From: Gammaproteobacteria bacterium
Lineage (GTDB): Bacteria; Pseudomonadota; Gammaproteobacteria; Burkholderiales; SG8-41
Length of the DNA: 64,000 bases
Assembly (NCBI GenBank): GCA_041483135.1
Contig: JBGPFE010000017.1
Span: 5,546-69,545 of the forward strand
Direction of reading: 5' to 3'
Positions 4,194 to 32,503 of this stretch are shown here, one piece after another; within the stretch, counting starts at the first letter, position 1; each line of letters opens with the position of its first letter. The notes under the pieces are model-generated. The model saw only the letters and a list, made by a program, of their open reading frames with translations, made no database searches and was not told the DNA's origin. Made by a program: the position numbers and the translations under genes.

Positions 4194-4195
4194 CG

Positions 4196-13795: not shown

Positions 13796-14380
13796 ATGCA
13801 GAATTCAAAGCAAAAACTTCATCTCGGTTGCGGCAGAACCATCCTCGAGGGCTGGATCAACGTTGACTCTAGGCAGCTGCCCGGCGTCGATGTCGTGGCC
13901 GATTTCGATGATTGCCGAAACACGCCACTGCCGTTCGCAGACAACAGCGTAGACGAGTTCCTGGCCAGCCATCTGATCGAGCATCTGGCGCAGCCGCTGC
14001 CTTTCATGCAGGAGCTGTATCGCATTGCGCGCGCCGACGCGGTAGCGGTATTCAGGCTGCCGTACGGATCGAGCGACGAGGCGTACGAGGACCCGACCCA
14101 TGTCCGCCAGTATTTTCTCAATTCGTTCGGGTATTTTTCACAGCCGCATTACTGGCGCGCCGATTACGGTTATCGGGGCGACTGGGAAACTGAGACGATA
14201 ACACTGCGGGTGGATGCCGAAAAACACCCTGGAAAAACGTCGGAGCAGATCATGCAGGAAGTGCACACGCTGCGTAACGTGGTGCGCGAGATGGTCGTGG
14301 AGTTGCGGGCGATCAAGCCGCCGCGCGCGCCCAAAGCGGAGCTGCAAAAAGGCTGCCGCATCAACATCAAGCTCGTCTGA
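13796..14380 (+). CDS. Class I SAM-dependent methyltransferase (Methyltransf_11-like)
   Basis: KLHLGCGRTILEGWINVD and DNSVDEFLASHLIEHL. Stop overlaps the next start (TGATG). Confidence 0.75.
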   Translation: MQNSKQKLHLGCGRTILEGWINVDSRQLPGVDVVADFDDCRNTPLPFADNSVDEFLASHLIEHLAQPLPFMQELYRIARADAVAVFRLPYGSSDEAYEDPTHVRQYFLNSFGYFSQPHYWRADYGYRGDWETETITLRVDAEKHPGKTSEQIMQEVHTLRNVVREMVVELRAIKPPRAPKAELQKGCRINIKLV

Positions 14381-18603: not shown

Positions 18604-20331
18604 GTGCTTAAGCGGCTATTCAAGAATTTGATCCGGCGATCGGCCGCTGCCACGCAAGGCTTGACCGGCGGACCGACGGGCAGCGCAAAGCTGGAACAGG
18701 CTATAGCCAGCTATCAGAAGCGCGATTTTGCCGCGGCAGGAAAGTTTTGCAACGCCATCATCAGCAGCGATCCCGGCAATGATGGCGCGCACAACCTGCT
18801 CGGTGCAATCGCCCTTGAGCAGCGCAATAGCGTGGCGGCAATCGCCCACTTCGAGCAGGCTATATCGCTTGATCCGGACCGGGAGGATTACCACTGCAAC
18901 TGCGGCGAAGCTTATCGAAGGGCGGGCAGGCTAAGCAAGGTGATAGATTGCTGCGAAACGGCGCTGCGCATAAATCCCGGCTTCGACGTGGCGTGGTACA
19001 ACTTGGCGACCGCACAAGCCAGCCTCGGGAAATTGCGCGAGGCCATCATCGCCCTTCGCAAGGCTCTCGAATTGAAGCCTGATGCCGAGGTTCATTCCAC
19101 GCTGTTGTATATGATGAGCTGTTGTCCGGGTATCGACGCACAAGAAGTGCTGGCCGAGCATCGCCGCTGGGGAAGCCTGTATGCAAATAATCTGGCCTGC
19201 CAAGCGTACCAGCACCGTGACCGGGGTGACCCCGAAAAAGTATTGCGCATCGGTTACGTTGCAGGGGTAATCGCCGGCTGCTTCATGGAACCTGTCATCG
19301 CTCATCGCGACCGCAAACATTTTCAGGTCTTTTTCTACAATAACAGCGCTGGCGCGTCGATGGATGACGGCGCGCGGCGTCTCCGGAATTTGGCCGATGG
19401 ATGGCGCCAGATCGAAAATATGCCGGATGCCGAAGCGGCCGCAACGATACGGCAGGACAATATAGATATTTTAGTGGACCTGGCCGGCCATTCGCGAGGC
19501 TACCGCCTGCCGGTTTTTGCTTATAAGCCGGCACCGGTCCAGGTAACCTACCTGGGATATTTAAACACTACCGGGGTGCGATCGATCGACTATCGCATCA
19601 CTGACCGCTATGCCGACCCCCCGGGTGTGGCAGATGCCTATCATGTGGAGCGTTTGATTCGCTTGCCACATAGTCAGTGGTGCTATCGCCCTCCCGCGGA
19701 GATGCCGACACCAAGCCCGCTGCCCGCGCAGGCGCGTGGATATATTACTTTCGGTTCTTTCAATAATTTTCACAAGATTAACGATGAAGTGCGCAAGCTC
19801 TGGGCAAGGTTGCTTGTTGAAGTGCCGGGTTCGAGGCTGTTGGTTCTGGGCGTACCCAAAGGCGAATGCGCAGACAGGCTGCGCGAGGATTTTAAAAGGC
19901 AAGGGGTTTCAGCGGAGCGCCTGGTGATTTGCGGCCAGTTGAATTACCTCGAGTACCTGCGCATGTATCAGGAGGCCGATATTGCGCTCGATCCCTTCCC
20001 GTTTAACGGGGGCACTACTACGTGCGAAGCGCTGTGGATGGGAGTGCCAGTGATCACGCTGGCGGGTCAATATGGATTGGCACGCTCCGGCGTCAGCTTG
20101 TTGTCGGTCGTAGGCTTGAACGGGTTGATAGCCGAAACCCCTGACGGCTATATTGCGGCCGCAACGCAGTTGGCTGCCGATCTGCAGCAGCTCAACGGGT
20201 TGCGCGTGACATTGCGCGAACGCATGGGTAAATCCCCGCTGATGGATGCTCCTGGATTCACGCATTCGCTGGAAATCGCGTACCGTGATATATGGCATGC
20301 CTGGTGCGCGCAGGAGAGAGTATCGTCCTAG
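18604..20331 (+). CDS. TPR + GT41/SPINDLY-like glycosyltransferase, paralog 2
   Basis: LRIGYVAG.IAGCFMEPVI, ILVDLAGHS, PAPVQVTYLGYLNTTG, YITFGSFN, LDPFPFNGGTTTCEALWMGVPVIT. Start is uncertain (GTG 18604 used; an in-frame ATG at 18520 overlaps the upstream gene). Codons are visibly more AT-rich than in paralog 1. Confidence 0.75.
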   Translation: MLKRLFKNLIRRSAAATQGLTGGPTGSAKLEQAIASYQKRDFAAAGKFCNAIISSDPGNDGAHNLLGAIALEQRNSVAAIAHFEQAISLDPDREDYHCNCGEAYRRAGRLSKVIDCCETALRINPGFDVAWYNLATAQASLGKLREAIIALRKALELKPDAEVHSTLLYMMSCCPGIDAQEVLAEHRRWGSLYANNLACQAYQHRDRGDPEKVLRIGYVAGVIAGCFMEPVIAHRDRKHFQVFFYNNSAGASMDDGARRLRNLADGWRQIENMPDAEAAATIRQDNIDILVDLAGHSRGYRLPVFAYKPAPVQVTYLGYLNTTGVRSIDYRITDRYADPPGVADAYHVERLIRLPHSQWCYRPPAEMPTPSPLPAQARGYITFGSFNNFHKINDEVRKLWARLLVEVPGSRLLVLGVPKGECADRLREDFKRQGVSAERLVICGQLNYLEYLRMYQEADIALDPFPFNGGTTTCEALWMGVPVITLAGQYGLARSGVSLLSVVGLNGLIAETPDGYIAAATQLAADLQQLNGLRVTLRERMGKSPLMDAPGFTHSLEIAYRDIWHAWCAQERVSS

Positions 20332-20573
20332 AGCATTTGTTTAGAATCGGGCGGACCCTTACTGGCAAGAGTTCCCGGATGTGCCTTGATTGGGAGGCCG
20401 TGTAACGGACGAATGCGGATTTGCCTGTAACGCGCGTACCCGCAGCTTGATAATGCATAAATGTGACCAAGCGGGATTGGTGAGACAATTGACAGGATCC
20501 CGATTCCCGTAAAGCAATAAATGCCCCGAAATATTTGCGACCCGGTGCGTCGCTTGCCAGGCGTTCAGATCAG

Positions 20574-21896
20574 ATGAAATGCGCGGTAGTCACGCCGATC
20601 GGGCCCGGGCATGAATTGTTTGCTTTGGACGCGGCGGAATCGGTAAAAAAGGCCTGCGCGAACTCGCTGGGCCAGTTCGACAGCATTGCATTCATCGAAG
20701 TCGACGATACGCGCGGCGAGCTGGGACGCTCGGCTGCGCGCAACCGGGGCATTCAACTGGCCAATGAAGCCGGCGCCGATTGGATATTTTTTCTTGACGC
20801 CGACGACGTGCTCGACCCGAACGCATTCGCTAATGTGACCCCATACCTAAACCGCCACGATGCGGTATGGGGCGCGATTTACGAACTCACCGAAGACGAG
20901 CAGGGCGGCGTCATCCGCCCCGACCAGTTGATGGAGATCTCGAGCCTCACGCAATTACTCGGCAACGATCCCTGGATCACGCTGCAGATCGGGCATTTCG
21001 TGAAAACGGATATTGCGCTGGCGGTGCAATTTAACCCGCAGATGGATTCCGGAGAGGATTTCGACTACTACCTGCGGATGTGGTCGCGGTACAATTGCAT
21101 CAAAATACCGCTGCCGTTCTTTTATAACCGGCGCAATACGCATGCCGAAGGGCCCCGCGCAACGACCGATCGCGAATGGCGGACCGCGGTCCAGCGCATG
21201 ATTTGCGAGAAATGCATAGCAACGGATTTTCATGCGGATTTCGAGTATCACGACGAACCATTCCGCTTTTACGTTTTCAATCCATTCGATGTGATCCAGC
21301 GGTATTATCTGAAAGGGCGGTTTTTCGAGCTGGAAGAACTGACTTATCTCGAGACCTGGATCGCGCCGGACGCAAATATCGTTGAAGTCGGTGCCTATGT
21401 CGGCAACCACGTGGTTTACTATTCGCGGTTCATGCGGCCGCGCAGTATCACGGTGCTTGAGCCCAATCCTGAGACGATCGGTCTTTTGCGCCGCAATCTC
21501 GAGGCTAACGCGGTATCCAACGCCGATCTGTCGTGGTTGGGAATTGCGGCGGGAGACGTCGAGGCGTATTACGAACTGGTATGCGATAGTATCGGCAATC
21601 GCGGCGCCGCGCGTCTCGTGCGCGCTCCGGCCGGGGAGGTCAAATCTGCGCCTCTCGATGCTTTGGTCAAGCACCGGGTCGATTTCATTAAAATCGACGT
21701 TGAAGGCATGGAGCTCGGGGTTCTCGCCGGCGCGCAACGCATCATCGCCGAGTCGCGGCCGAAAATCATGATTGAGGTATTCAGGGATCACGTCCCGGAG
21801 TTCGGGCAATGGCTGGATCGCAACAAGTACCGTGTCGCGCGCGCATTTGAATACGTGGGCGCTGTAAACTTCATGGTCGAGCCGGCCAATGGGTGA
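20574..21896 (+). CDS. Bifunctional GT2 glycosyltransferase / FkbM methyltransferase fusion
   Basis: N-terminus MKCAVVTPIGPGHE...RSAARNRG...IFFLDADDVL matches GT2 with DxD. C-terminus VGAYVGNHVVY, VLEPNPETIGLL, FIKIDVEGMELGVLAG matches FkbM. Confidence 0.8.
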   Translation: MKCAVVTPIGPGHELFALDAAESVKKACANSLGQFDSIAFIEVDDTRGELGRSAARNRGIQLANEAGADWIFFLDADDVLDPNAFANVTPYLNRHDAVWGAIYELTEDEQGGVIRPDQLMEISSLTQLLGNDPWITLQIGHFVKTDIALAVQFNPQMDSGEDFDYYLRMWSRYNCIKIPLPFFYNRRNTHAEGPRATTDREWRTAVQRMICEKCIATDFHADFEYHDEPFRFYVFNPFDVIQRYYLKGRFFELEELTYLETWIAPDANIVEVGAYVGNHVVYYSRFMRPRSITVLEPNPETIGLLRRNLEANAVSNADLSWLGIAAGDVEAYYELVCDSIGNRGAARLVRAPAGEVKSAPLDALVKHRVDFIKIDVEGMELGVLAGAQRIIAESRPKIMIEVFRDHVPEFGQWLDRNKYRVARAFEYVGAVNFMVEPANG

Positions 21897-21994: not shown

Positions 21995-22645
21995 ATGAGC
22001 TATAGCCGCGACCATCCGAGCGCGAAGTATCAAAGCATGATCGCGCTATATCGTGAACTGCATGCCAAGGGCGAGCGCAGGCTCGGCCTGCCGCCGGAGG
22101 CGACCTACCCCGGCGTGAGTCTGCTGCCGCATATCGGGCACATCAAGGATTTGATCGTGCGCACCGGTGCCAGGACCATCCTCGACTACGGTTGCGGCAA
22201 AGGCCTCCAATACGAGCCGCAGAAAATCGCGGTCCCGGGGGAAGGCGAATGGGACGGCGTCATCGAGTACTGGGACGTTGACGAAGTGCGATGTTACGAC
22301 CCGTGTTATGAGCCTTACAGCAAATTGCCCGAAGGCAAATTCGACGGCGTGGTCTCGACCGACGTGCTCGAGCATTGCATCGAAGATGACATACCGTGGA
22401 TTATCGCCGAAATGTTTTCATATGCTGATCGCTTCGTGTTCGCGAACGTCGCGTGCTATCCGGCCCTCACAACGTTGCCGAACGGTGAAAACGCGCATTG
22501 CACGGTGCGCCCGATCGGCTGGTGGCAGGAAATATTTGCTGCGGCGAGCAGAATCCATCCGCAGGTCCTCTGGAAACTGTACGTCGAGGAACACGCGCAT
22601 AGCGGGCACGGTGACAGCGAAACCGGGCGCATCGCCGAGAGCTGA
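21995..22645 (+). CDS. Class I SAM-dependent methyltransferase (216 aa, paralog B)
   Basis: ILDYGCGKGLQY, VVSTDVLEHC. Collinear with 13051-13701, including CYDPCYxPY and ANVACYPA...NGENAHCT. Confidence 0.7.
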   Translation: MSYSRDHPSAKYQSMIALYRELHAKGERRLGLPPEATYPGVSLLPHIGHIKDLIVRTGARTILDYGCGKGLQYEPQKIAVPGEGEWDGVIEYWDVDEVRCYDPCYEPYSKLPEGKFDGVVSTDVLEHCIEDDIPWIIAEMFSYADRFVFANVACYPALTTLPNGENAHCTVRPIGWWQEIFAAASRIHPQVLWKLYVEEHAHSGHGDSETGRIAES

Positions 22646-22661: not shown

Positions 22662-24446
22662 ATGGGTTTCCGTGACATCCTCAGACGCTGGCGCGAGCGC
22701 CCCGCAGCCGCCCGGGCAACACCGGACGCGGGCGTCGCCGCCGCAGATGCAACGGCGGCCGCGGAATTAAATCAACAGGGGATGCTGCTGCGGCAACGCG
22801 CGCAGTATGCGGAAGCGGAGCGCAGCCTGATGCGTGCCGTCGAGCTCAAGCATGATTTCGCCGAAGCGCACTTGAATCTGGGGCTGACCTATCTGGACCA
22901 GGGCCATCTTGAAGACGCTGCGGACTGCTTTCAGCTTGCGGCTCATTTTGCACCGGGTCTCGTCGCGGCGCATATCGAGCTGGGCGCGGTGCTTGTGAAG
23001 CTCGGGCGTCTCGACGCGGCAGAGACCGCGTACCGTCAGGCGCTCGCGATCAATCCGGATTACGGCGAAACCTGGTTGCGCCTCGCCGATGTGCTCAAGG
23101 CGCGCGGCGATCTGGACGCTGCGATCGATGGTTACCGCGCCGCGGTTGCCCGCGATCCGGCATTGGCCGACGCGCATTGCCAGCTCGGTTATGCGCTTTA
23201 TAAGGCGGGACGATATAACGAGTCGCGCCCGTGTTTCGACGCTGCGCTCATGCTGCGCCCGGATTTTGCCGAAGCTCATCATAACCTGGGTTTGCTGCTA
23301 CTCGAGACCGGCTACCCGGCTGAGGCGCTGCGCAGCTTCGAGCGAGCGCTCGCGATACACCCTGACGCTGCAGAAATCCGTGCCTGCGTTGCGCACGCGC
23401 TGCGCGACCTCGGGCGCCTGGATGAAGCGCTGATGCATTACGAGGCAGCGCTCGCGCGGCAACCGGGATTCGCCGACGCTGTGATCAATCGCAGCTATGC
23501 GTTGCTGCTGCGCGAGGACTACGCCGCCGGTTGGGCTGAATACGAGCGCCGCTTCGATATCGGCGCGATGCCGCCGCGCGGCTTTCCGTTCGCGCCGTGG
23601 CGGGGCGAGCCGCTCGCCGGCAAGCGCATCCTGGTTTACGCCGAGCAGGGGCTGGGTGACGAAATCATGTTTGCCTCGTGCCTGCCCGATCTGTTGCGGG
23701 TCGCCGGGCACTGCGTAATCGAGTGCAACACGCGGCTCGCAAAGCTGTTCCGACGCTCATTTCCCCGCGCTCATGTACATGGTGCGGGCAAAGATGACGA
23801 CCAGGGGTGGGTCACGGAGTTGCCGCCGCTGGACTGCCAGGTCGCGATCGGGTCGCTTCCATCGTACTTTCGGCGCTCACCCACCGATTTTCCACCGCAC
23901 CGTGGCTATCTCGCAGCCGACGCGGCGCGAGTCGGCCACTGGCGCCGCGAGCTTGCCGCCGGTTCCGCGCTGCGGGTGGGCATTGCATGGCGCGGCGGCT
24001 CGCTGCGCTCACGGCAGTTCACGCGTTCGATCGCATTGCCGCAGTGGCTGCCATTGTTGCGGCAGCGCGGAGCGGCGTTTTACGCGCTGCAATATGGCGA
24101 TACCGCGGCAGAACTCGCGCAGATGCATGCTCAACACGGTGTATCCGTCCGCCATCTCGGAAACGCGAGCGACGATCTCGACGAACTCGCGGCAATCATC
24201 AGTGCGCTCGATCTCGTGGTCAGCGTCGACAACACGATCGCTCATCTCGCGGGTGCCCTGGGACAAACGGTGTGGACGCTGCTGCCGTTCAGCACCGAGT
24301 GGCGCTATCCGCGCAGCGGGGAGGCCATGCCCTGGTACCCTTCCGCACGCCTGTTCAGACAAATTCAACCGCTTGACTGGATGCCGGTGATGGAGCGCGC
24401 AGTCCATGCATTGCAAACGGATTTCGCGGCGTGCTCGATCGCTTGA
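22662..24446 (+). CDS. TPR + GT9-like glycosyltransferase, paralog 3
   Basis: Start trimmed to ATG 22662 (MGFRDILRRW), because the longer ORF from 22167 overlaps the methyltransferase gene. ILVYAEQGLGDEIMFASCLPDL, VGIAWRGG, MPWYPSARLFRQ. Confidence 0.8.
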   Translation: MGFRDILRRWRERPAAARATPDAGVAAADATAAAELNQQGMLLRQRAQYAEAERSLMRAVELKHDFAEAHLNLGLTYLDQGHLEDAADCFQLAAHFAPGLVAAHIELGAVLVKLGRLDAAETAYRQALAINPDYGETWLRLADVLKARGDLDAAIDGYRAAVARDPALADAHCQLGYALYKAGRYNESRPCFDAALMLRPDFAEAHHNLGLLLLETGYPAEALRSFERALAIHPDAAEIRACVAHALRDLGRLDEALMHYEAALARQPGFADAVINRSYALLLREDYAAGWAEYERRFDIGAMPPRGFPFAPWRGEPLAGKRILVYAEQGLGDEIMFASCLPDLLRVAGHCVIECNTRLAKLFRRSFPRAHVHGAGKDDDQGWVTELPPLDCQVAIGSLPSYFRRSPTDFPPHRGYLAADAARVGHWRRELAAGSALRVGIAWRGGSLRSRQFTRSIALPQWLPLLRQRGAAFYALQYGDTAAELAQMHAQHGVSVRHLGNASDDLDELAAIISALDLVVSVDNTIAHLAGALGQTVWTLLPFSTEWRYPRSGEAMPWYPSARLFRQIQPLDWMPVMERAVHALQTDFAACSIA

Positions 24447-26116
24447 TGCGCTGGTTAAGCCCGGCCCCGGCGCGGGACCCCACGACTGCGGGGGTCGAAG
24501 TGCCGGCGCCGGCGCATGCAGCGGCGGCTATTGCAGCCTATTCGCGAGGCGTCGAATATTTCCGGCGCGGCGAGTTCGAGCTGGCGGCGCAGGCCTTCAA
24601 GCAGGCGCTCGAGCTCAAGCACAACCTGGCGGAGGCGCATTTTTATCTCGGCCTGATATCCCGCAAGCAGTCACAGCTCGAAGACGCGAGTGACCGCCTG
24701 TTGCTGGCAACGGCTTTCAAGCCGGATTTCGCAGAGGCCTGGTTTTATCTTGGCGTCGTCGACCTCGGTTGCAAGCGATACGATGCGGCGCGCCGCAATT
24801 TCGAAACCGCCCTGCGGCTCAAGCCGGATTACGCCGAGGCGCACAACAGCTATGCGAAACTGTGCGAGGAGCTGGAACAAATCGGCGACGCTATTGCCCA
24901 TATCAGAACGGCGCTGCAGCTCAAGCCCGACTTCGCGCTCGCTTATTGCAATCTGGCCCGCCTCACGCTGCGTGACTCGCTCGATGCCGATGCCGCGCTG
25001 CATTACGCGAGAACCGCGGTCAGCTTGCGGCCGCAGCTTGCTGAAGCACACAGTTGCCTCGCGCAGATCCTGCAATTCCAGTGCCGCTGCGAAGAAGCCG
25101 TCGCGGAATGCGGGATCGCGCTGGAGCTCGATCCCGCAGCCTCTCACACGCGCATGATCCGGGCGCTTGCCGCGCTGATGCTCGGGGATTTTGCGGCGGG
25201 CTGGCGCGACTACGAGGAACGCAAAAAAGTTTACCCCATCTATGCGGTCAGGAAATTCCCTTACCCGGAGTGGAACGGCACTCCGCTGTCGGGCCGGCGG
25301 CTGCTGGTCTACCATGAGCAGGGCCTCGGCGACGAAATCATGTTTGCCTCATGCCTGCCCGATTTGCTGGCGCTGGGCGGGCACTGCATCGTCGAGTGCT
25401 CGTCCAAACTCGAGCCGTTGTTTCGGCGCTCCTTTCCGGCGGCGACAGTCATCGCTGCCGATCAAACATCTCCCGACATGTCGTACCTGAACGCGCTGCC
25501 GCGCTGCGACTGGCAGGTAGCGGCGGGTTCCCTGCCCCGATATTTTCGGCGACACCGGGACGACTTTCCCCGTTCCGCGGGTTATCTGGTCGCCGCTGCC
25601 GACCGGATAGACCACTGGCGCGCGCGGTTGCAGCGGCTGGGCCCGGCGTCTAAAGTGGGTTTGTCGTGGCGCGGCGGTGCTCTGCATACCAACCAGCCGA
25701 ATCGCTCAATTGACCTGGAACGATTGGCGCCGCTGCTGAAAATGCCGGGTTGCGAATTTGTCAGCCTGCAATACGGCGATTGCCGTGCCGAACTCGATGG
25801 CCTGCATGAGCGACTGGGCGTGCGCGTGCAACATTGGGCGGAGGCGATCGAAGACTATGCCGAGACGGCAGCGTTGGTGAGTGCGCTCGATCTGATAATA
25901 ACCGTCGACACTTCGGCCGCCCATTTGAGCGGCGCACTGGGCCGGCCGACCTGGGTGTTGGTGCCGGCGAACGCGGAATGGCGCTACATGGTGACGGGCG
26001 ACCGTATGCCGTGGTATCCGACGATGCGTTTGTTCCGTCGCGCCCACGGCGCCGGCTGGGAGCCGGTGATCGAACGCGTAGCAGCCGAACTTGCCGGCAT
26101 TGCGCGCCGAACGTGA
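24431..26116 (+). CDS. TPR + GT9-like glycosyltransferase, paralog 4
   Basis: LLVYHEQGLGDEIMFASCLPDL, VGLSWRGG, MPWYPTMRLFRR. Overlaps the upstream paralog by 16 bp. Confidence 0.8.
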   Translation: MLDRLMRWLSPAPARDPTTAGVEVPAPAHAAAAIAAYSRGVEYFRRGEFELAAQAFKQALELKHNLAEAHFYLGLISRKQSQLEDASDRLLLATAFKPDFAEAWFYLGVVDLGCKRYDAARRNFETALRLKPDYAEAHNSYAKLCEELEQIGDAIAHIRTALQLKPDFALAYCNLARLTLRDSLDADAALHYARTAVSLRPQLAEAHSCLAQILQFQCRCEEAVAECGIALELDPAASHTRMIRALAALMLGDFAAGWRDYEERKKVYPIYAVRKFPYPEWNGTPLSGRRLLVYHEQGLGDEIMFASCLPDLLALGGHCIVECSSKLEPLFRRSFPAATVIAADQTSPDMSYLNALPRCDWQVAAGSLPRYFRRHRDDFPRSAGYLVAAADRIDHWRARLQRLGPASKVGLSWRGGALHTNQPNRSIDLERLAPLLKMPGCEFVSLQYGDCRAELDGLHERLGVRVQHWAEAIEDYAETAALVSALDLIITVDTSAAHLSGALGRPTWVLVPANAEWRYMVTGDRMPWYPTMRLFRRAHGAGWEPVIERVAAELAGIARRT

Positions 26117-26155
26117 GGGTGCGTTGGTGAATCCATTGGCGCAAGGGGCCGCGGC

Positions 26156-27760
26156 ATGAGCCTCGGCGAGTGGCTCACGGCGCTGCTGCGTCGCGTTGGC
26201 GCGGGCCGACAGCCTGCTCCGGCTGCCGTCGAGGCGTTGCCGGTATTGCTGCCGGACGAAGAAAAAGACCGCACCGCGAGCGCCGCTTTTGATGCGGGTA
26301 AAGCGGCGTTCCGGGCCAAAGACTATGCCACGGCGATCGATTGCTTCAAAACGGTGATCGAGCTGCGGTACGACGATGCGGATGCCCACAATTATCTTGG
26401 CCTAAGCCATCTTGAGCAGGGCGCCCATGAAGACGCCGCCGACTGTTTTTTGCTCGCGATCCATTACCGCCCGCAGTTTCCGCAAGCGTTCTATAACATG
26501 GCGCTGGCCGCGCACCGGCGCGGGGATCTTGCGCAAGCTGTTACCTGCCTCGAACAGGCAATCAGTCTGAAACCGGATTTTGCCGGCGCCTACAGCACCC
26601 TTGGCTACTTACTGAGCCACCAACTCGGTGACTTTGCACGCGGCGCCGAGCACATCAGGACGGCGTTGCGGCTGAGCCCGACCGATCCCGATGTGCTTTG
26701 CAACTACGGCATGGTGCTCACGCAGGAAGGACGGCCGGAGGAAGCGCTCGCGATTTGCGACCAGCTTCTTGCCGCCCATCCGGATATGCACGAGGCGCGC
26801 CTGAACCGCGCGCTGGCCGCGCTCAAGCTGGGTCGTTTTGCCGAGGCGTGGCCCGATTACGAGGCGCGCAAGCTTGCGCGCGGCAATTACATGCCCCGCG
26901 CGCTGCCGCTTCCAGAGTGGCGGGGGCAGCTGCTGCGCGACAAAAAGCTGCTGGTTTATGCCGAACAGGGTCTCGGCGACCAGATCATGTTCGCTTCCTG
27001 CCTGCCCGACTTGCTGCCGCAGGTTGGCGGTTGCGTGGTGGAGTGCACGCCGCCGCTGGTGCCGATTTTCAGGCGCTCCTTCCCGACCGCGCGGATAGAG
27101 TCCCAGGCGCAAGGTGATGCCAGACTGGCCAGCCTGGTGCAATCCGCGCGCTTTGATTATCAAGTTGCGATCGGCAGCCTGGCCGGATATTTCCGCAGGG
27201 ACCGGGCCGAGTTTCCGCTGCACGCGGGCTACCTGCATGCGGATGCTGCGCGGGTTGCTTACTGGCAAGATCGCCTGAGCGCATTGGGCCCGGGCCTGAA
27301 AGTCGGAATCTCGTGGTTCGGCGGGGCAGCCTCAACCCGTCGCGATACCCGCTCGATGCACTTGCAGGATTGGCTGCCGCTGCTGGCGCAACCCGCGTGT
27401 TGTTTTGTCAGCGTGCAATACGGCAAAGTGAATAGTGAGCTGGCAACGTTGTCACGCGCGCACCGGGTTAAAATTCACGCATGGGGTGAAGCAATTGACG
27501 ACTACGACGAAACGGCGGCGCTGGTGACGGCGCTCGATCTGGTGATCTCGGTTCAAACTGCGATCGTGCATCTGGCGGGGGCGCTCGGCAAACCCGCCTG
27601 GGTCATGCTGCCGGCGGCGTCCGAATGGCGTTATCTGGAGCGCGGCGATACGATGCCATGGTATCCGAGCGTGCGTCTGCTGCGCCAGCCGCGACTCGGC
27701 GACTGGCAACCGGTCATCGCACGCGTCGCGCAGGACCTCGCACAATACGCAAGGCGCTAA
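26156..27760 (+). CDS. TPR + GT9-like glycosyltransferase, paralog 5
   Basis: LLVYAEQGLGDQIMFASCLPDL, VGISWFGG, MPWYPSVRLLRQ. Confidence 0.8.
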   Translation: MSLGEWLTALLRRVGAGRQPAPAAVEALPVLLPDEEKDRTASAAFDAGKAAFRAKDYATAIDCFKTVIELRYDDADAHNYLGLSHLEQGAHEDAADCFLLAIHYRPQFPQAFYNMALAAHRRGDLAQAVTCLEQAISLKPDFAGAYSTLGYLLSHQLGDFARGAEHIRTALRLSPTDPDVLCNYGMVLTQEGRPEEALAICDQLLAAHPDMHEARLNRALAALKLGRFAEAWPDYEARKLARGNYMPRALPLPEWRGQLLRDKKLLVYAEQGLGDQIMFASCLPDLLPQVGGCVVECTPPLVPIFRRSFPTARIESQAQGDARLASLVQSARFDYQVAIGSLAGYFRRDRAEFPLHAGYLHADAARVAYWQDRLSALGPGLKVGISWFGGAASTRRDTRSMHLQDWLPLLAQPACCFVSVQYGKVNSELATLSRAHRVKIHAWGEAIDDYDETAALVTALDLVISVQTAIVHLAGALGKPAWVMLPAASEWRYLERGDTMPWYPSVRLLRQPRLGDWQPVIARVAQDLAQYARR

Positions 27761-27762
27761 GC

Positions 27763-29322
27763 GTGCTCTGGACAGTCATAAAGCGCATCACCCGCGAAGC
27801 ATTGCGCGCCCCGGATGGAGACTTGCGTGATGGCGCGTTAAAAGCGGGTATCGCATGTTTGAATGCCGGTAAGCTTGATGACGCGCGACGGCATTTCAGT
27901 GAGGCGCTTGCCGCGGCGCCCGGGAATTTCGATGCATTATTCCATCTGGGGTTGACCGAAGCGCGTAGCGGGCACCTGGATGCCGCGCAGCAGTTGCTGG
28001 AAGCGGCGCGCGCGCGGCGTGACGACGCGGGCGTGCACAACGCGCTCGGCAATATCCATCGCTTGCGCGGGCAGTTGGATGCGGCGGTGGCGGGCTACCG
28101 ACGGGCATTAGAATTGGACGGCGAGCATATCGCCGCTCTCGTGAATCTCGGTCTCTCGTTGCGCGATCAGGGTGATCCTGAACAGGCGCTGCCCATTCTC
28201 GAGCACGCGCTGCGGCTTGCGCCTGATCATGTTGACGCGCTATTCAACACGGCGCTTGCATCGATCGATACCGGCGCGAGCGAAGCCGCCTACGTCCTGC
28301 TCGGACGGGTGCTCGAGCTCGATGCAGATCATGCCGAAGCTCACACGCAGCGCGGATTTCTGCTTCTCAGGCGCGGCGATTTCGCCGCAGGGTGGCGCGA
28401 ATATGCGTGGCGTATGCGCGCCCCTGACTGGGGCGCCCAAGCGCAATACTCGTATCCGCATTGGCAGGGTGAGTCATTGTCCGGGAAAAGCGTGTTGGTG
28501 AGGGCGGAGCAGGGATTAGGCGATCAGATCATGTTCGCGTCATGTCTGCCGGAGGTGCTGTCTCAAGCGCGGCATACTGTTATCGAATGTGACCCGCGGC
28601 TTGCCGGATTGTTCGCGCGATCCTTCCCTGCCGCCGCAGTTTACCGCTATCGCGTGAGCGGCGAGCCCGACTGGCTGCCGGAACAGGCACCGGATTTCCA
28701 GGTCCATGGCGGCAGCCTGCCGGGCGTTCTGCGTAATCGCACCGCAGACTTTCCGCGTCACAGGGGTTACCTCGTGCCCGATCCTGCGCGCGTTGCCGCA
28801 TGGCGTGCACGGCTTGCCGCACTCGGCCCCGGACTCAATATCGGCATCGCCTGGCGCGGCGGCACACCGCGCACGCGCCAGGCGGCGCGCTCGCTTACGC
28901 TCGATACGCTGTTGCCTATCCTGTCGCTGCCGCAAGCGAATTTCGTATCGCTGCAATACGATCCGAGCAGCGATGAGATCACAACTCAACGCGTGCGCCA
29001 CGGCGTCACGATCCACGAATGGCCGCAGAAAATTGCCGATATGGACGAAACGGCGGCGTTGGTCGCGAGCCTGGATCTCGTGATCACGGTGTGCACGACG
29101 GTTGCCCATATGAGCGGCGCGCTTGCTAAAACAGCATGGGTTATGGTACCTGTGGTCGCGGAATGGCGTTATCTCGAGCGCGGCGTGACGATACCGTGGT
29201 ATCCGGCGCTGCGTCTGTTCCGCCAGCAGCGGCGCGGTGAGTGGAGCGACGTGATAGCGGCAGTGCACGCGGAGCTGCAAGATTGGGCCGGCACGCCCGG
29301 CGCCAGGACGCGAGACGCGTAG
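27763..29322 (+). CDS. TPR + GT9-like glycosyltransferase, paralog 6
   Basis: GTG start 2 bp after the upstream stop (VLWTVIKRITRE). VLVRAEQGLGDQIMFASCLPEV, IGIAWRGG, IPWYPALRLFRQ. Confidence 0.75.
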   Translation: MLWTVIKRITREALRAPDGDLRDGALKAGIACLNAGKLDDARRHFSEALAAAPGNFDALFHLGLTEARSGHLDAAQQLLEAARARRDDAGVHNALGNIHRLRGQLDAAVAGYRRALELDGEHIAALVNLGLSLRDQGDPEQALPILEHALRLAPDHVDALFNTALASIDTGASEAAYVLLGRVLELDADHAEAHTQRGFLLLRRGDFAAGWREYAWRMRAPDWGAQAQYSYPHWQGESLSGKSVLVRAEQGLGDQIMFASCLPEVLSQARHTVIECDPRLAGLFARSFPAAAVYRYRVSGEPDWLPEQAPDFQVHGGSLPGVLRNRTADFPRHRGYLVPDPARVAAWRARLAALGPGLNIGIAWRGGTPRTRQAARSLTLDTLLPILSLPQANFVSLQYDPSSDEITTQRVRHGVTIHEWPQKIADMDETAALVASLDLVITVCTTVAHMSGALAKTAWVMVPVVAEWRYLERGVTIPWYPALRLFRQQRRGEWSDVIAAVHAELQDWAGTPGARTRDA

Positions 29323-29368: not shown

Positions 29369-30142
29369 ATGCTGAAAAGTCTGCTGCAGCAGGTATGGAA
29401 TAGTATGCGCGGGGCGGGCGCGGCTGGTCCGGCGCCGGGCGCGAATGTGCAGCAGACTCCCCGCGAGGCGCAGGAAGCGTTACTTGCGTTGCTGCGCGCA
29501 CCGATGCCGCATCCCAAGCGTATCGACTATGAGATGGTCGCATGGCTGCTGGCGTCGTCGAGCTCGGCGGAGTATCTGATACAGCGAATGATGAGCGCGG
29601 AAAACTTCGTGCATGCCGGCCCGCTGCTCGATTTTGCTCTTGAGCGGTGCACGCTGGACGGCTTGATCATGGAGTTCGGCGTTTTTCGAGGCGCGTCGCT
29701 GCGCGCGATCGCACGACGCGTTACGCAGGAGGTCCACGGTTTCGATTCGTTCGAAGGCCTGCCGCGGGACTGGACTTATTTCCAGAAGCAGGGAAGATTT
29801 TCGCTGCAAGGACAGGCGCCACAATTCGAGGAAGCCAACATCCGCGTGCATCAAGGATGGTTCGACCAGACGTTGCCGCCATTTTTAGCGCAGCATCCGG
29901 GGCCGGCGCGTTTTATTCATATCGATTGCGACATTTACGCCTCTACTCGCACGGTGCTGGAGTTGCTCAAACCGCGCATCGTCAGCGGCACGGTGATCGT
30001 ATTCGACGAATATCTAAATTATCCGGGATGGCAACAACACGAGTACAGGGCGTTCCAGGAGTTTGTGGCACAGGCCGGGATAGCCTATCGCTACATCGGC
30101 TTTGCTTCTTCGGACTACGCGGTGGCGGTCCAAGTGGCATGA
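29369..30142 (+). CDS. TylF/MycF-type (macrocin-O-methyltransferase-like) SAM methyltransferase
   Basis: MEFGVFRGASLRAIA, FDSFEGLP, IHIDCDIYASTRTVLE. Confidence 0.8.
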   Translation: MLKSLLQQVWNSMRGAGAAGPAPGANVQQTPREAQEALLALLRAPMPHPKRIDYEMVAWLLASSSSAEYLIQRMMSAENFVHAGPLLDFALERCTLDGLIMEFGVFRGASLRAIARRVTQEVHGFDSFEGLPRDWTYFQKQGRFSLQGQAPQFEEANIRVHQGWFDQTLPPFLAQHPGPARFIHIDCDIYASTRTVLELLKPRIVSGTVIVFDEYLNYPGWQQHEYRAFQEFVAQAGIAYRYIGFASSDYAVAVQVA

Positions 30143-30526: not shown

Positions 30527-30946
30527 ATGAAGCGTATACAACGGGGTTTCACCCTGATTGAATTGATGATCGTGGTGGCGATCATCGGTATTCTGGCGGC
30601 GGTCGCGCTGCCGGCGTATCAGGACTACACCATCCGTGCGAAGGTGACAGAGCTAGTGCTGGCGGCGAGTGGCTTCAAAACCACGATTGCCGAGAAATCG
30701 CAGTCCGACGGCACGCTGGCAAGTGCCGGTGTTGGCTTGACGGTAACAAGCGGCGGTCGAATCATTACTGGCAGCGTAACTACCGCAGGTTTGATTACCG
30801 TCATCGGTTCGTCTACGACGCTCGGCACCGACGTGACGATCATACTGACGCCGTCGATCAACCCCGGTGGACGTATCGCGTGGCAATGCGGAACCGGCAA
30901 TACCACATCGACGTTCAAGTATGTGCCGGCCGAATGCCGTCACTGA
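30527..30946 (+). CDS. Type IVa pilin (major-pilin type), copy 1
   Basis: Class III signal peptide MKRIQRG|[27 protein letters not shown] (G-1, F+1, E+5). C-terminal Cys pair WQCG...PAECRH. AAGGAG ribosome-binding site at 30515-30520. Confidence 0.95.
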
Positions 30947-31075: not shown

Positions 31076-31123
31076 CTGACCATAATAACAACGAGTTTCT
31101 CAAACGGGGCGGGAGTGGTTGCA

Positions 31124-31543
31124 ATGAAAAGAGCGCTTAAAGGATTTACTCTCATCGAGTTGATGATCGTGGTCGCGATTATTGGCATCCTCGCGTCAGT
31201 CGCGTTACCTGTTTATACCGATTACACCATCCGCGGCAAGGTTTCAGAGCTGGTCATCGTGGCAGGCAATTTCCGCACGACTATCGCGGAAAAAACGGCT
31301 ACTGACGGGACCTTGGCGAGCGCGGGGCTCGGCCTTACCGTCACCTCCGGTGGTCGAGTTATTACCGGCAGCATTACTACCGCAGGCGTGGTAACTATCA
31401 TCGGTTCGGCAACGACGATCGGCACCGACGTGACGATCATATTGACGCCGTCTTTAAACGCCAACGGGCGTGTCGCGTGGCAATGTGGCACTGGCGCCAC
31501 TACATCGACCTATAAGTTTGTGCCTTCCGAATGCCGGCATTGA
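31124..31543 (+). CDS. Type IVa pilin, copy 2
   Basis: MKRALKG|[28 protein letters not shown]-terminal WQCG...PSECRH. Same mature length as copy 1. GGGAG ribosome-binding site 8 nt upstream. Confidence 0.95.
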
Positions 31544-31603: not shown

Positions 31604-32503
31604 TCAGCCTGCGCGTTTCACGAACGCCTGATTGTATGGCGTCAGATTTAGTTTGAGGCCGTATTCGCGGCAAAACTCTTCCAGTGCCTGACGCGCGCCC
31701 GGCCAGTCGTAGTCGTCGCTCGCAATGATGCCGCCCGTCGCAAGACGGGGATAAAAGTATTCGAAGCTCTCGAGGGTTGGATCGTAGAGATCGACATCGA
31801 CGTGCACGAACCGGTATTTGCGCTCCGGCAGCCCCTGAAACGTCAGTGGAATCCAGCCCGGGTGGAACTCGATGTCCGGAAACTCGCCGAGATTGCGCTT
31901 GACCTGCTCCAAGCCCGCGGCGAACGCACCCTGGACGCACATAGACCTGACCTGCTTGGCGCGTTCGAATCCATCCGGAACCTCGTCTTCCAGCGTCGGT
32001 GCGCTCAAGCCCTGAAAGGAATCGAAAATGCGGTATCCAGCGCCGCGATATGCTGGATCGCGCTTGTGTAAATAACTGCACATCAAGTACGACGACAGTC
32101 CCTGGTAGCATCCGCATTCGGCAACGTCTCCGTCAACCGAATGCGTTTCCGCCAGCAGTTGAGTCAGTACACGGAACCTTGCCCGTCGCTGAACCGGCCA
32201 CGGCCGTGACGTAGTGGCGCGCAGCGCCTGGAGGTAAATCGGTTCATATTCGGCCTCGTCGTTATCCGGCTGCAGGGCGACGAAATCACTGAAAGCCGCA
32301 TACGACTCTTCGAACCGCCGCTGGCGGTACAGCATTTCCATCAGCTTTTCGTGGTACGCCGCCTCGGCGGGGAAAGATTGCACGAGCCGGCGGTAGATGA
32401 ATTCTGCCTGTTGGTAGTGTTTGTTTTTCTCGTGCCCGAGAGCGGTCTTGATCGCTTCGGCAACGGGCATTCCGTTCATTGGCTTGCAGCCCCCAAAGAG
32501 CAA
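31604..32503 (-). CDS. TPR-like N-terminus fused to TylF-type SAM methyltransferase
   Basis: DVAECGCYQGLSSYLM, FDSFQGLS, VHVDVDLYDPTLESFEYF. The N-terminal ~90 aa are helical-repeat-like. Start is uncertain (Met at 32503, 32479 or 32470). Confidence 0.75.
   Translation of the reverse strand: MLFGGCKPMNGMPVAEAIKTALGHEKNKHYQQAEFIYRRLVQSFPAEAAYHEKLMEMLYRQRRFEESYAAFSDFVALQPDNDEAEYEPIYLQALRATTSRPWPVQRRARFRVLTQLLAETHSVDGDVAECGCYQGLSSYLMCSYLHKRDPAYRGAGYRIFDSFQGLSAPTLEDEVPDGFERAKQVRSMCVQGAFAAGLEQVKRNLGEFPDIEFHPGWIPLTFQGLPERKYRFVHVDVDLYDPTLESFEYFYPRLATGGIIASDDYDWPGARQALEEFCREYGLKLNLTPYNQAFVKRAG

What the first reader, a model, noticed from the sequence alone, without database searches (positions are those of the whole stretch)
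22662..29322. Four back-to-back TPR+GT9-like paralogs (six in the island) with a conserved catalytic half, divergent TPR halves and a shared short basic N-terminal peptide
Genes 22662-24446, 24431-26116, 26156-27760 and 27763-29322 are contiguous, with junctions of -16, +39 and +2 bp. They are paralogous to 11254-12999 and 16971-18551.
All six share near-invariant strings in the C-terminal ~300 aa:
- (I/L/V)LV(F/Y/R)xEQG(L/I)GD(E/Q)IMFASC(L/V)P;
- (V/I)G(V/I/L)(S/A)W(R/C/F)GG;
- (M/S/I)PWYP(S/T/A)xR(L/V)(F/Y/L)R.
The N-terminal TPR halves differ in length and sequence.
All eight TPR-GT proteins, including the two GT41-type ones, also open with a similar basic amphipathic peptide:
- LLLRIFGRAARV
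- FSQRLRSLFGGR
- FRDILRRWRERP
- LDRLMRWLSPAP
- WLTALLRRVGAG
- WTVIKRITREAL
- LFKHLLKPGAARR
- LKRLFKNLIRRS
This pattern suggests one catalytic chemistry retargeted by diversified recognition domains, plus a common docking or localisation tag. Such a paralog battery is unusual and I cannot link it to a characterised function.
Basis: seen in the sequence. Interest (0 to 1): 0.6.

Follow-up and report, generated by a model that had tools for sequence, protein, structure and literature searches.

The report
Pilin-linked battery of tagged TPR glycosyltransferases
Six old, non-redundant enzymes that join a protein-binding TPR arm to a heptosyltransferase-like sugar-transfer domain sit with helper enzymes just upstream of two pilus-subunit genes, and most of them begin with the same short membrane-type helix, which points to an untested way of sugar-coating pilins from inside the cell.

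Summary
Six co-oriented paralogs (four contiguous at 22662-29322) share a C-terminal domain. AlphaFold models it as a GT-B fold, and its best solved matches are GT9 enzymes (WaaF, WaaC, TibC). The TPR halves are more divergent (32% identity against 49%).

The battery is not unusual. The domain family has about 42,000 clusters at 50% identity, all 18 same-genus genomes carry 2-9 copies, and fused multi-module proteins exist. The six copies are ancient orthogroups kept in order across relatives. TPR and GT halves are under equal purifying selection (dN/dS 0.22 and 0.19). A residue aligned with the WaaC "VDT" Asp differs by orthogroup (D, Q or C), so "one chemistry" is doubtful.

The genome has no flagellin gene. 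In 10 of the 15 closest species, a type IVa pilin gene lies directly downstream.

The N-terminal peptide is real. It is an amphipathic basic helix, conserved in orthologs, and also present on two methyltransferases that lack TPR. It is specific to the pilin-linked clade. Some copies resemble the SecA N-terminus, and other paralogs in this genome start with a SEC-C motif instead.

Best reading: a cytoplasmic, membrane-tethered pilin glycosylation and methylation system. This is untested.

The parts
9462..10277 (-). 2OG-Fe(II)-oxygenase-like protein (HxD...H), partner of the FkbM methyltransferase.
   Evidence: Weak Pfam PF13640 hit. It is 47% identical to a paralog that sits next to an FkbM gene in a second island on contig C64.
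10243..11073 (-). FkbM-family methyltransferase that opens with the amphipathic tag MNIFRILLWPFRR followed by an Ala/Pro linker.
   Evidence: PF05050. N-terminus and hydrophobic moment 0.73.
11254..12999 (+). TPR + GT9-like paralog (orthogroup P5). Tag (V)MLSNLLLRIFGRAARV. Signature VCT.
13051..13701 (+). 216-aa methyltransferase-like protein (copy a). No tag.
13796..14380 (+). Class I methyltransferase. No tag.
   Evidence: PF08241..
14380..16239 (+). TPR + GT41 (OGT/SPY-like) enzyme a. Tag MLASLFKHLLKPGAARR starts at residue 7.
   Evidence: PF13844, E = 6e-48..
16170..16916 (+). GT8-like GT-A enzyme. The true start is probably near 16236 (MMIRVF).
   Evidence: Weak PF01501 hit..
16971..18551 (+). 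TPR + GT9-like paralog (orthogroup P6). Tag FSQRLRSLFGGR. Signature ADN (VDN in its orthologs).
18604..20331 (+). TPR + GT41 enzyme b (the ORF is open from 18520). Tag (V)LKRLFKNLIRRS.
   Evidence: PF13844, E = 5e-46..
20535..21896 (+). GT2 + FkbM methyltransferase fusion.
   Evidence: PF00535 and PF05050.
21995..22645 (+). 216-aa methyltransferase-like protein (copy b).
   Evidence: An ortholog is present in L088.
22662..24446 (+). TPR + GT9-like paralog P1. Tag MGFRDILRRWRERP. The GT domain runs about 23481-24443. Signature VDN.
   Evidence: (PF01075, 23.6 bits against a cut-off of 22).
24431..26116 (+). TPR + GT9-like paralog P2. Tag (V)LDRLMRWLSPAP. The GT domain runs about 25151-26113. 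Signature VDT.
26156..27760 (+). TPR + GT9-like paralog P3. Tag MSLGEWLTALLRRVGAG. The GT domain runs 26798-27757. Signature VQT. Both structure models were made from this protein.
27763..29322 (+). TPR + GT9-like paralog P4. Tag (V)LWTVIKRITREAL. The GT domain runs about 28342-29319. Signature VCT.
29369..30142 (+). TylF-type O-methyltransferase with no TPR domain but the same tag, MLKSLLQQVWNSMRGAGAAGPAP.
   Evidence: PF05711 and PF13578. The tag is kept in the orthologs of L004, L005, L006 and L088.
30527..30946 (+). Type IVa pilin A, rich in Ser/Thr. Proposed acceptor.
   Evidence: PF07963 and PF00114..
31115..31543 (+). Type IVa pilin B, a tandem paralog.
31604..32503 (-). TylF-type methyltransferase with a short TPR N-terminus, convergent on the pilin genes.
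   Evidence: A gene in the same position is found in L005 and L006.

Best explanation
The island at about 9.4-32.5 kb is a cytoplasmic protein-modification system that is functionally coupled to the two pilin genes at its downstream end.

**The enzymes.** Each of the six paralogs is a soluble two-lobed enzyme. A TPR superhelix most likely binds the protein acceptor, or a partner enzyme. It feeds a GT-B domain of the heptosyltransferase (GT9) type that transfers a sugar from a nucleotide sugar. The six are old orthogroups, each with its own conserved TPR arm and its own active-site variant (D, Q or C at the position of the WaaC 'VDT' Asp). They most likely do six different jobs, such as different sites, different sugars or successive steps, rather than one job on different targets.

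**The helpers.** Two TPR-GT41 enzymes, a GT8-like enzyme, a GT2-FkbM fusion, several methyltransferases and a 2OG-oxygenase-like protein would extend and methylate the glycan.

**The tag.** Ten of the island's enzymes begin with a short basic amphipathic helix followed by a flexible Ala/Pro/Gly linker. The most likely role is an in-plane membrane anchor, or a docking helix, that gathers the enzymes at the inner face of the cytoplasmic membrane, where pilin is inserted and stored.

**Shown here:** the fold, the paralogy, the conservation, the synteny with pilins, the properties of the tag and the absence of flagellin.

**Inferred:** the acceptor (pilin), the donor sugars, the membrane binding and the order of action.
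For: **Fold.**
- The full-length model has pLDDT 91 and shows a TPR region followed by two Rossmann halves.
- The domain-only model has pLDDT 89. Its best PDB matches are WaaF 1psw (E = 3e-8, TM 0.60), the GT9 enzyme 3tov, WaaC and the protein heptosyltransferase TibC.
- hhalign aligns the family's signature 'SV[D/Q/C][T/N]xxxHLAGALG' onto WaaC 'SVDTGLSHLTAAL'.

**Old, non-redundant paralogs.**
- Each window paralog groups with its own orthologs from five other islands, with strong support.
- Gene order is conserved.
- dN/dS is 0.22 for the TPR half and 0.19 for the GT half.
- The signature residue is specific to the orthogroup.

**Coupling to pilin.**
- A co-oriented type IVa pilin gene lies within about 60-1000 bp after the last TPR-GT gene in 10 of the 15 closest species, including two Methylococcus.
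- The same is seen in L002, L005, L006 and L088, although the outer flanks differ.

**Other routes and acceptors.**
- The genome is 98.5% complete and has no flagellin gene.
- No OTase, flippase or initiating transferase was found in the island. Wzy_C hits occur only on contigs C35 and C6.

**Precedents.**
- The cytoplasmic TPR-GT41 enzyme Ogt, encoded beside pilA, is required for PilA glycosylation in Synechococcus elongatus (PMC9306852).
- In FlmG, the TPR domain binds the acceptor and the GT-B domain sets the donor.

**Tag.**
- Amphipathicity is significantly above background, p = 1e-5.
- It is conserved in orthologs and present on methyltransferases that lack TPR.
- AlphaFold predicts a helix at residues 3-14, followed by a low-confidence (most likely disordered) stretch at 13-30.
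- It is absent from the clade that is not linked to pilins, whose median moment of 0.43 is close to the background median of 0.42, against 0.54 in the pilin clade (p = 8e-8).
Against: - No direct evidence shows that these pilins are glycosylated.
- The globular domain of a type IV pilin lies in the periplasm after Sec/SRP insertion, so a cytoplasmic enzyme has no obvious access to it. The same paradox is unsolved for cyanobacterial Ogt.
- One syntenic island, L001, shows no pilin gene after the battery.
- Other copies in this genome (contigs C44, C10, C64, C65) are not next to pilins.
- Known GT9 enzymes mostly act on lipid-anchored acceptors.
- Pfam GT9 reaches its cut-off in only one of the six paralogs.
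- A PDB sequence search with the domain profile finds nothing.
Confidence: 0.5

Rival explanations
1. The enzymes are peripheral membrane glycosyltransferases that build a glycan on a lipid carrier, as GT9 enzymes do on the LPS core. The glycan is then flipped and transferred en bloc to pilin Ser/Thr in the periplasm by a PglL/TfpO-type O-oligosaccharyltransferase encoded elsewhere. In this reading the TPR arms hold the enzymes together rather than binding pilin.
For: - Characterised GT9 enzymes such as WaaC and WaaF act on lipid-anchored acceptors (matches).
- An amphipathic N-terminal helix fits membrane-surface enzymes.
- Two Wzy_C-domain proteins exist in the genome.
- The pilin has an invariant Ser in an 'ASAGV' stretch. 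From memory, this resembles the surroundings of Neisseria PilE Ser63, a periplasmic glycosylation site.
- This route removes the topology problem.
Against: - No initiating phosphoglycosyltransferase, flippase or OTase was found by Pfam in this island, and the precomputed Pfam tables of five syntenic islands list none.
- As far as I know, TPR fusions are not a feature of lipid-linked glycan assembly. Characterised TPR-GT enzymes (OGT, SPY, FlmG, cyanobacterial Ogt) act on proteins.
- All characterised GT41 enzymes modify proteins, and two GT41 enzymes lie in the island.
- Distant family members sit directly beside flagellin genes, and flagellin is glycosylated in the cytoplasm.
Confidence: 0.2
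2. The acceptors are proteins other than the pilins, for example cytoplasmic parts of the pilus machine or unrelated secreted proteins. In this reading the adjacency to pilin genes reflects co-regulation or a shared variable 'pilin island' site.
For: - The island lies between a PilB-like ATPase operon and the pilin genes, a place where accessory genes are known to accumulate in other bacteria (from memory).
- About seven further family copies in this genome are not beside pilins.
- L001 lacks pilins after its battery.
Against: - The pairing of TPR-GT and pilin genes recurs across two proteobacterial classes with different outer flanks. This is hard to explain by insertion-site preference alone.
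- No other candidate acceptor gene is conserved within the islands.
Confidence: 0.15
3. The enzymes modify LPS or an exopolysaccharide, as ordinary heptosyltransferases do.
For: - Best fold matches are to WaaF and WaaC.
- There are weak TIGR02193 heptosyltransferase I hits.
Against: - Sequence identity to the matched GT9 structures is only 9-15%.
- The enzymes carry N-terminal TPR arms.
- No LPS-core, Wzx/Wzy or export genes lie in the island.
- The conserved neighbours are pilin or flagellin genes.
Confidence: 0.05
4. The shared N-terminal peptide is an artefact of mis-called start codons or of composition.
For: - Four of the eight starts (five if 11254 rather than the ATG at 11257 is taken) are GTG, and several ORFs extend further upstream.
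- A sequence profile does not link the paralogs' peptides to one another.
Against: - Orthologs in L088 begin with the same peptides, some at an ATG.
- By eye, about 85 of 102 independently called homologs have the tag.
- The hydrophobic-moment test gives p = 1e-5 for the window and p = 1e-11 for the homologs.
Confidence: 0.03

Closest known systems
FlmG flagellin O-glycosyltransferase (Caulobacter crescentus, Brevundimonas subvibrioides; PMC7591256, bioRxiv 10.1101/2022.03.25.485807)
   Same: [quoted passage not shown]
- It acts in the cytoplasm on the subunit of a surface filament.
- The TPR domain binds the acceptor and the GT-B domain sets the donor.
- Distant members of the present family lie directly beside flagellin genes.
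   Different: - This genome has no flagellin, and the neighbours are pilins.
- There are six paralogs plus two GT41 enzymes, instead of one enzyme.
- No pseudaminic or legionaminic acid genes lie in the island.
- Sequence homology to FlmG was not tested here, because no FlmG sequence was at hand.
Cyanobacterial Ogt (TPR-GT41) acting on PilA (Synechococcus elongatus PCC 7942; PMC9306852)
   Same: - A cytoplasmic TPR glycosyltransferase encoded beside tandem pilA genes and required for pilin glycosylation.
- The window also has two TPR-GT41 genes beside tandem pilins.
   Different: - Here the dominant enzymes carry a GT9-like catalytic domain, not GT41.
- There are eight TPR-GT enzymes plus methyltransferases.
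- The enzymes carry an N-terminal amphipathic tag, whereas the Ogt authors found no secretion signal in Ogt.
Bacterial autotransporter heptosyltransferases TibC/AAH (PDB 4rap, 4rb4)
   Same: - A GT9-like GT-B fold.
- From memory, these enzymes glycosylate Ser residues of a Sec-exported surface protein in the cytoplasm before export.
   Different: - TibC has no TPR arm and, as named in its PDB entries, forms an iron-containing dodecamer.
- No autotransporter lies in this island.
- Sequence identity is only about 12%.
LPS heptosyltransferases WaaC and WaaF (GT9; PDB 2h1h, 1psw)
   Same: - These are the best fold matches.
- The C-terminal 'HLAxALG' nucleotide-sugar signature is shared.
   Different: - They act on a lipid acceptor, have no TPR arm and show 13-15% identity.
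- The signature Asp is replaced by Q or C in half of the paralogs.
SecA terminal elements: the N-terminal amphipathic helix and the C-terminal SEC-C metal-binding domain (PMC6620043; 10.1101/613315; 10.1101/2021.03.26.437172)
   Same: - Four of the eight window tags score in the top 1% of genome N-termini against this genome's own SecA segment LLKKIFGSRNDR.
- The homologs P0106, P0116, P0111 and P0125 read MLK(V/M)LKRIFGSR or close variants of it.
- Three other TPR-GT genes of this genome begin with a SEC-C motif (Pfam-confirmed for two).
   Different: - The other four window tags are not SecA-like in sequence.
- The likeness may simply reflect a generic basic amphipathic helix.
- No functional data exist.

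Membership tests
GT9 (heptosyltransferase family, Pfam PF01075) | GT-B fold with two Rossmann-like halves. | tested here: met
   AlphaFold2 model of the domain alone, pLDDT 88.9. Foldseek best hits are WaaF, a Veillonella GT9 enzyme, WaaC and TibC, with probability 1.0 and TM up to 0.60.
GT9 (heptosyltransferase family, Pfam PF01075) | Sequence match to the family model above its curated cut-off. | tested here: inconclusive
   PF01075 scores 23.6 bits in P0001 against a cut-off of 22. It scores 18.3 bits in P0002 and 16.5 bits in P0006, and gives no hit in the other three paralogs. A PDB sequence search with the domain profile finds no GT9 chain.
GT9 (heptosyltransferase family, Pfam PF01075) | C-terminal D(T/S)G...HLxAALxxP donor-binding signature. 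| tested here: inconclusive
   hhalign aligns the region to WaaC and WaaF (E = 1.4e-4, probability 53%). HLAGALG is kept. The Asp is D in three paralogs, Q in one and C in two.
GT9 (heptosyltransferase family, Pfam PF01075) | ADP-heptose as donor. | not testable with these tools
   This needs an enzyme assay.
FlmG-class flagellin O-glycosyltransferases | [quoted passage not shown] | tested here: met
   FlmG is described as 596 aa with TPR and GT-B domains.
FlmG-class flagellin O-glycosyltransferases | Sequence homology of the catalytic domain to FlmG. | not tested
A homolog search from a flagellin-linked member returned no protein named FlmG.
FlmG-class flagellin O-glycosyltransferases | Flagellin as acceptor, with a flagellin gene present or adjacent. 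| tested here: not met
   PF00669 gives no hit in the 98.5%-complete genome. Distant family members in five other phyla or classes are adjacent to flagellin genes.
Cyanobacterial Ogt-PilA type system | A TPR-GT41 enzyme encoded beside pilin genes. | tested here: met
   Two PF13844 proteins at 14380-16239 and 18604-20331, and two pilins at 30527-31543.
Cyanobacterial Ogt-PilA type system | Pilin glycosylation depends on the enzyme. | not testable with these tools
   This needs genetics and mass spectrometry.
En bloc O-glycosylation (PglL/TfpO type) | A Wzy_C oligosaccharyltransferase, a flippase and an initiating transferase in or near the locus. | tested here: not met
   None was found by Pfam in the island. 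Wzy_C hits occur only on contigs C35 and C6. The role of those two proteins is unknown.
TibC/AAH protein heptosyltransferases (BAHT) | An adjacent autotransporter substrate and an iron-binding dodecamer. | tested here: not met
   No autotransporter gene lies in the island. The oligomeric state was not tested. The fold match has TM of about 0.5.
SecA-like terminal tags | SEC-C motif (PF02810) above its cut-off. | tested here: not met
   It is absent from the eight window proteins (their N-termini were read). It is present at residues 5-22 and 15-32 of two TPR-GT proteins on contig C65, and in a third copy cut by the end of C64.

The most novel reading that the evidence does not exclude
**The reading.** The N-terminal tags imitate the two terminal elements of SecA. 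One is the basic amphipathic N-terminal helix, found on the pilin-linked enzymes. The other is the SEC-C metal-binding domain, found on other paralogs in this genome and on scattered homologs. In published work, the SecA helix binds the membrane, and the metal-binding domain binds SecB and ribosomes (abstracts listed).

**What it would mean.** The tags would bring TPR-glycosyltransferases and methyltransferases to the site where nascent pilin leaves the ribosome and enters the membrane. Pilin would then be glycosylated co-translationally, before its globular domain crosses the membrane. This would resolve the topology paradox of cytoplasmic pilin glycosylation, which also applies to cyanobacterial Ogt.

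**Support so far.**
- The amphipathic tag is restricted to the pilin-linked clade.
- Some homologs carry near-exact SecA-like strings.
Probability: 0.12. Interest if true: 0.85.

Novelty: new variant of a known kind. Interest (0 to 1): 0.6.

Why it matters
**Pilin glycosylation.** Type IV pilin glycosylation is textbook periplasmic chemistry, with PglL, TfpO or TfpW acting on lipid-linked glycans. A conserved array of cytoplasmic enzymes carrying protein-binding arms sits beside pilin genes in sulfur oxidisers, methanotrophs and many uncultured Burkholderiales. This would be a separate route, so far supported by experiment only for one GT41 enzyme in cyanobacteria.

**An unstudied family.** The catalytic family is very large, at about 42,000 clusters at 50% identity. 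I could identify no characterised member, unless FlmG belongs to it.

**A testable tag.** The N-terminal tag is short. It marks enzymes with four different catalytic folds in the island and separates the pilin-linked clade from the rest of the family. It offers a direct experimental handle on where and how the modification happens.

**Surface properties.** Pilus surface chemistry affects adhesion, phage attachment and DNA uptake, and it may affect electron transfer in environmental bacteria.

Tried and rejected
- **PDB sequence searches.** The search with the full-length profile returned only TPR proteins. The search with the C-domain profile returned nothing meaningful. Only fold comparison of a domain-only model was informative.
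- **Profile of the tag.** A profile HMM of the N-terminal peptide, built from P0003 orthologs, found only P0003 in the six-frame genome. I therefore dropped the idea that the paralogs share a sequence motif and tested physical properties instead.
- **FlmG membership.** A homolog search from a flagellin-linked Nisaea member gave no named FlmG, and the FlmG papers give no family assignment beyond "GT-B". This remains open.
- **PilM docking.** I asked whether the tag imitates the PilN N-terminus. The genome's own PilN starts MIRINLLPHREIRR. Only the "LLPR" of the P0003 orthogroup is faintly similar, so I did not pursue it.
- **SEC-C as a general tag.** SEC-C was found on only 1 of 182 family members in the fetched loci and on about 5 of 120 in the second homolog list. 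It is real but rare.
- **Literature.** Searches for a described TPR-GT9 pilin system found none.

Full report
**1. The observation**

The four contiguous ORFs (22662-24446, 24431-26116, 26156-27760, 27763-29322) and the two further paralogs (11254-12999, 16971-18551) are open and co-oriented. Their junctions are -16, +39 and +2 bp.

A six-way alignment shows 40-44% identity to the first paralog over the whole proteins. The only deviation is SPWYPSVALYR in 16971-18551.

Split by domain, mean pairwise identity is 32.5% in the TPR half and 49% in the C-terminal half. Pfam sees many TPR families in all six. GT9 (PF01075) reaches its cut-off only in P0001 (23.6 against 22 bits) and falls below it, or is absent, in the others.

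**2. Fold of the C-terminal half**

- A PDB sequence search with the C-domain profile gave nothing useful.
- A full-length AlphaFold2 model of the 26156 protein has pLDDT 91. It shows a short N-terminal helix (residues 3-14), a low-confidence stretch (13-30), a run of TPR-type helix pairs (twelve helices in all) and two alpha/beta halves.
- As a whole it resembles SPINDLY and OGT, that is, the TPR plus GT-B architecture.
- A model of the domain alone has pLDDT 88.9. It matches GT9 structures best: WaaF 1psw (E = 3e-8, TM 0.60), a Veillonella GT9 enzyme, WaaC, and the protein heptosyltransferase TibC.
- hhalign against E. coli WaaC and WaaF gives a weak local match (E = 1.4e-4) restricted to the C-terminal signature. 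The family's 'SV[D/Q/C][T/N]xxxHLAGALG' lies on WaaC 'SVDTGLSHLTAAL'.

"GT9-like" is right at the level of fold and weak at the level of sequence.

**3. Are the six copies one chemistry on different arms?**

A maximum-likelihood tree was built from the C-domains of the window, of the rest of the genome and of five syntenic islands. It places each window paralog with its own orthologs at high support. No two window copies are nearest relatives. The duplications are old, and gene order is kept.

I compared the four contiguous genes with a close relative, L088 (60-88% amino-acid identity, fully collinear). Pooled dN/dS values are:

| Segment | dN/dS |
|---|---|
| TPR half | 0.22 |
| GT half | 0.19 |
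| Tag | 0.39 |
| Linker | 0.51 |

The TPR arms are thus different between paralogs but conserved within each orthogroup.

The residue aligned with the Asp of the WaaC 'VDT' signature is also orthogroup-specific:

| Paralog or orthogroup | Residues at that position |
|---|---|
| 22662 and 16971 groups | DN |
| 24431 | DT |
| 26156 group | QT |
| 11254 group and 27763 | CT |

From memory, this Asp contacts the heptose in WaaC. The N-terminal EQG(L/I)GD motif is invariant. This argues for six distinct jobs, not one reaction retargeted.

**4. How common is it?**

- The genome holds about 13 copies of the domain.
- All 18 genomes of the same genus hold 2-9 copies, mostly clustered. Seven of 12 other families of the same order hold at least one.
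They span Beta-, Gamma- and Alphaproteobacteria, Planctomycetota, Acidobacteriota, Nitrospirota and others.
- Of the 79 fetched loci, 37 hold two or more copies and 8 hold four or more.
- A full HMMER search of 1.84 billion cluster representatives found 42,199 with E <= 1e-10. Many are giant proteins with 3-6 copies of the domain.
- Where a source names these proteins, NCBI calls them [quoted passage not shown] or simply "tetratricopeptide repeat protein".

A paralog battery of this kind is therefore ordinary in frequency. I found no experimental work on the family.

**5. Context and likely acceptor**

The island, from about 9.4 to 32.5 kb, contains the following genes:
- a 2OG-oxygenase-like gene and an FkbM methyltransferase on the minus strand;
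- six TPR-GT9-like genes;
- two TPR-GT41 genes;
- a GT8-like gene;
- a GT2-FkbM fusion;
- three small methyltransferase-like genes;
- a TylF methyltransferase;
- two tandem type IVa pilin genes rich in Ser/Thr (30527-30946 and 31115-31543);
- a convergent TPR-TylF methyltransferase.

Upstream lies a signalling operon that includes a PilB-like ATPase, and sox genes lie downstream.

Several findings bear on the acceptor.
- The genome is 98.5% complete and has no flagellin gene. The acceptor known for FlmG is therefore excluded.
- In relatives the battery is followed directly by one or two pilin genes, even where the outer flanks differ. This is seen in L002, L005, L006 and L088.
- Ten of the 15 closest species in the genome scan show the same arrangement, including two Methylococcus. 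Several of the other five loci are cut short by contig ends.
- The pilins are 67-78% identical across four islands and keep several invariant Ser/Thr positions.
- Distant family members (33-42% identity) have no pilin nearby, but five of them lie within a few kilobases of flagellin genes, four of them within 1 kb.
- No oligosaccharyltransferase, flippase or initiating transferase is present in the island. Wzy_C proteins occur only on two other contigs.

Published precedents fit this picture. Synechococcus elongatus Ogt is a cytoplasmic TPR-GT41 enzyme encoded beside pilA, and it is required for PilA glycosylation (PMC9306852). In FlmG the TPR domain binds flagellin and the GT-B domain sets the donor.

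**6. The N-terminal peptide**

- All eight quoted peptides are present.
- Ortholog N-termini in L088 begin with the same peptides, which supports the chosen starts.
- By eye, about 85 of 102 database homologs show M-x-[ILW]-x-x-[WRK]-[LI]-x-x-[LF]-[LR], followed by a linker rich in Gly, Ala and Pro.
- The eight peptides are far more amphipathic than 3816 background N-termini (p = 1e-5). The homologs are too (p = 1e-11).
- The tag does not depend on the TPR domain or on the catalytic fold.
  - The TylF methyltransferase at 29369 carries it (MLKSLLQQVWNSMRGAGAAGPAP), and its orthologs in four islands keep it.
  - The FkbM methyltransferase at 10243-11073 carries it as well.
- The tag is specific to the pilin-linked clade. 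In 104 homologs of a flagellin-linked alphaproteobacterial member, the N-termini are polybasic and hydrophilic, carry SEC-C, or are absent. Their median hydrophobic moment is 0.43, close to the background median of 0.42, against 0.54 in the pilin clade (p = 8e-8).

**7. Likeness to SecA (a lead, not a finding)**

- This genome's SecA begins MISGLLKKIFGSRNDRLL.
- Scored against LLKKIFGSRNDR, four of the eight window tags fall in the top 1% of genome N-termini (16971: 0.05%; 18604: 0.3%; 11254 and 26156: 0.8%). The other four do not.
- Four homologs read MLK(V/M)LKRIFGSR or close variants. They score far above the 99.9th percentile of the background (35-42 against 19).
- Three other TPR-GT genes of this genome, on contigs C65 and C64, begin with a SEC-C motif, which is the metal-binding domain at the C-terminus of SecA. 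One is GT41, one is GT9-like and one is cut by a contig end. Pfam confirms the motif in the first two.
- SEC-C also occurs in about 5 of 120 distant homologs.
- By their abstracts, published work shows that the SecA metal-binding domain binds SecB and ribosomes (10.1101/613315; PMC6620043). The papers listed deal with the N-terminal helix and its binding to acidic membranes (10.1101/2021.03.26.437172; PMC7809386).

The likeness could be no more than a generic basic amphipathic helix.

**8. Conclusion**

The best-supported reading is a cytoplasmic, probably membrane-tethered, multi-enzyme system that glycosylates and methylates a protein, most likely the adjacent pilins. It is built from old non-redundant TPR-GT paralogs. 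It works like FlmG and cyanobacterial Ogt.

Membership of GT9 is supported by fold only, and membership of the FlmG family was not tested.

The main rival is assembly of a lipid-linked glycan followed by periplasmic transfer. It solves the topology problem but lacks its defining genes in all the islands examined.

Earlier notes of this scan describe the same kind of island in other genomes and reach a similar reading. They are unverified and I did not use them as evidence. One of them reports the tag on enzymes with different catalytic domains, and I confirmed that here independently.

Noticed in passing
Genome contigs C65 (L086:14649-16880 minus, L086:1521-3563 minus) and C64 (L087:17609-17662): Three further TPR-glycosyltransferase genes begin with a SEC-C motif, which is the metal-binding domain found at the C-terminus of SecA. 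One is GT9-like, one is GT41 and one is cut by a contig end. Of the five SEC-C motifs in this genome, three are on such enzymes.
   Followed up: partly
window 9462-10277 (-) with 10243-11073 (-); L087:15115-16627: A gene pair occurs in both glycosylation islands of the genome. It joins an FkbM methyltransferase to a protein of about 260 aa with an HxD...H pattern (2OG-oxygenase-like). The oxygenase-like proteins are 47% identical. The real gene at 9.5-10.3 kb is on the minus strand, not the plus-strand ORF 9534-10112.
   Followed up: partly
Representative library hits P0248-P0397; L017:12405-15755, L018:5656-8694: Many proteins carry 2-6 complete copies of the GT9-like domain in one polypeptide of up to 3140 aa. 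What is a tandem gene battery here exists elsewhere as a fused multi-headed enzyme.
   Followed up: no
Loci L023, L026, L059, L066, L074: Distant family members lie within a few kilobases (four of the five within 1 kb) of flagellin genes in Chromatiaceae, Poribacteria, Acidobacteriota, Planctomycetota and Nisaea. L059 shows four flagellin-like ORFs in a row.
   Followed up: partly
Homologs P0128-P0247: The alphaproteobacterial clade of the family has a different N-terminal extension. It is strongly polybasic and hydrophilic, for example MTRAERRRQMKQR and MSRKKTKKNKKKKKNKEK.
   Followed up: no
window 18000-22000 and 30000-32000: G+C falls to 0.555-0.60 over the second GT41 gene, the GT2-FkbM fusion and the pilin genes, against 0.62-0.64 in the rest of the island.
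   Followed up: no
window 30527-31543: Both pilins, and their orthologs in three other islands, keep an invariant Ser in the stretch A/S-S-A/S-G (mature position about 59). From memory, this resembles the surroundings of the glycosylated Ser63 of Neisseria PilE.
   Followed up: no
window 13051-13701 and 21995-22645; L002:2595-3272, L005:3300-3995 and 5614-6306, L006:904-1554, 1702-2379 and 4171-4812: Small proteins of 213-231 aa with no Pfam hit, or only sub-threshold ones, recur next to TPR-GT genes in the islands examined. They appear to be a conserved partner family.
   Followed up: no
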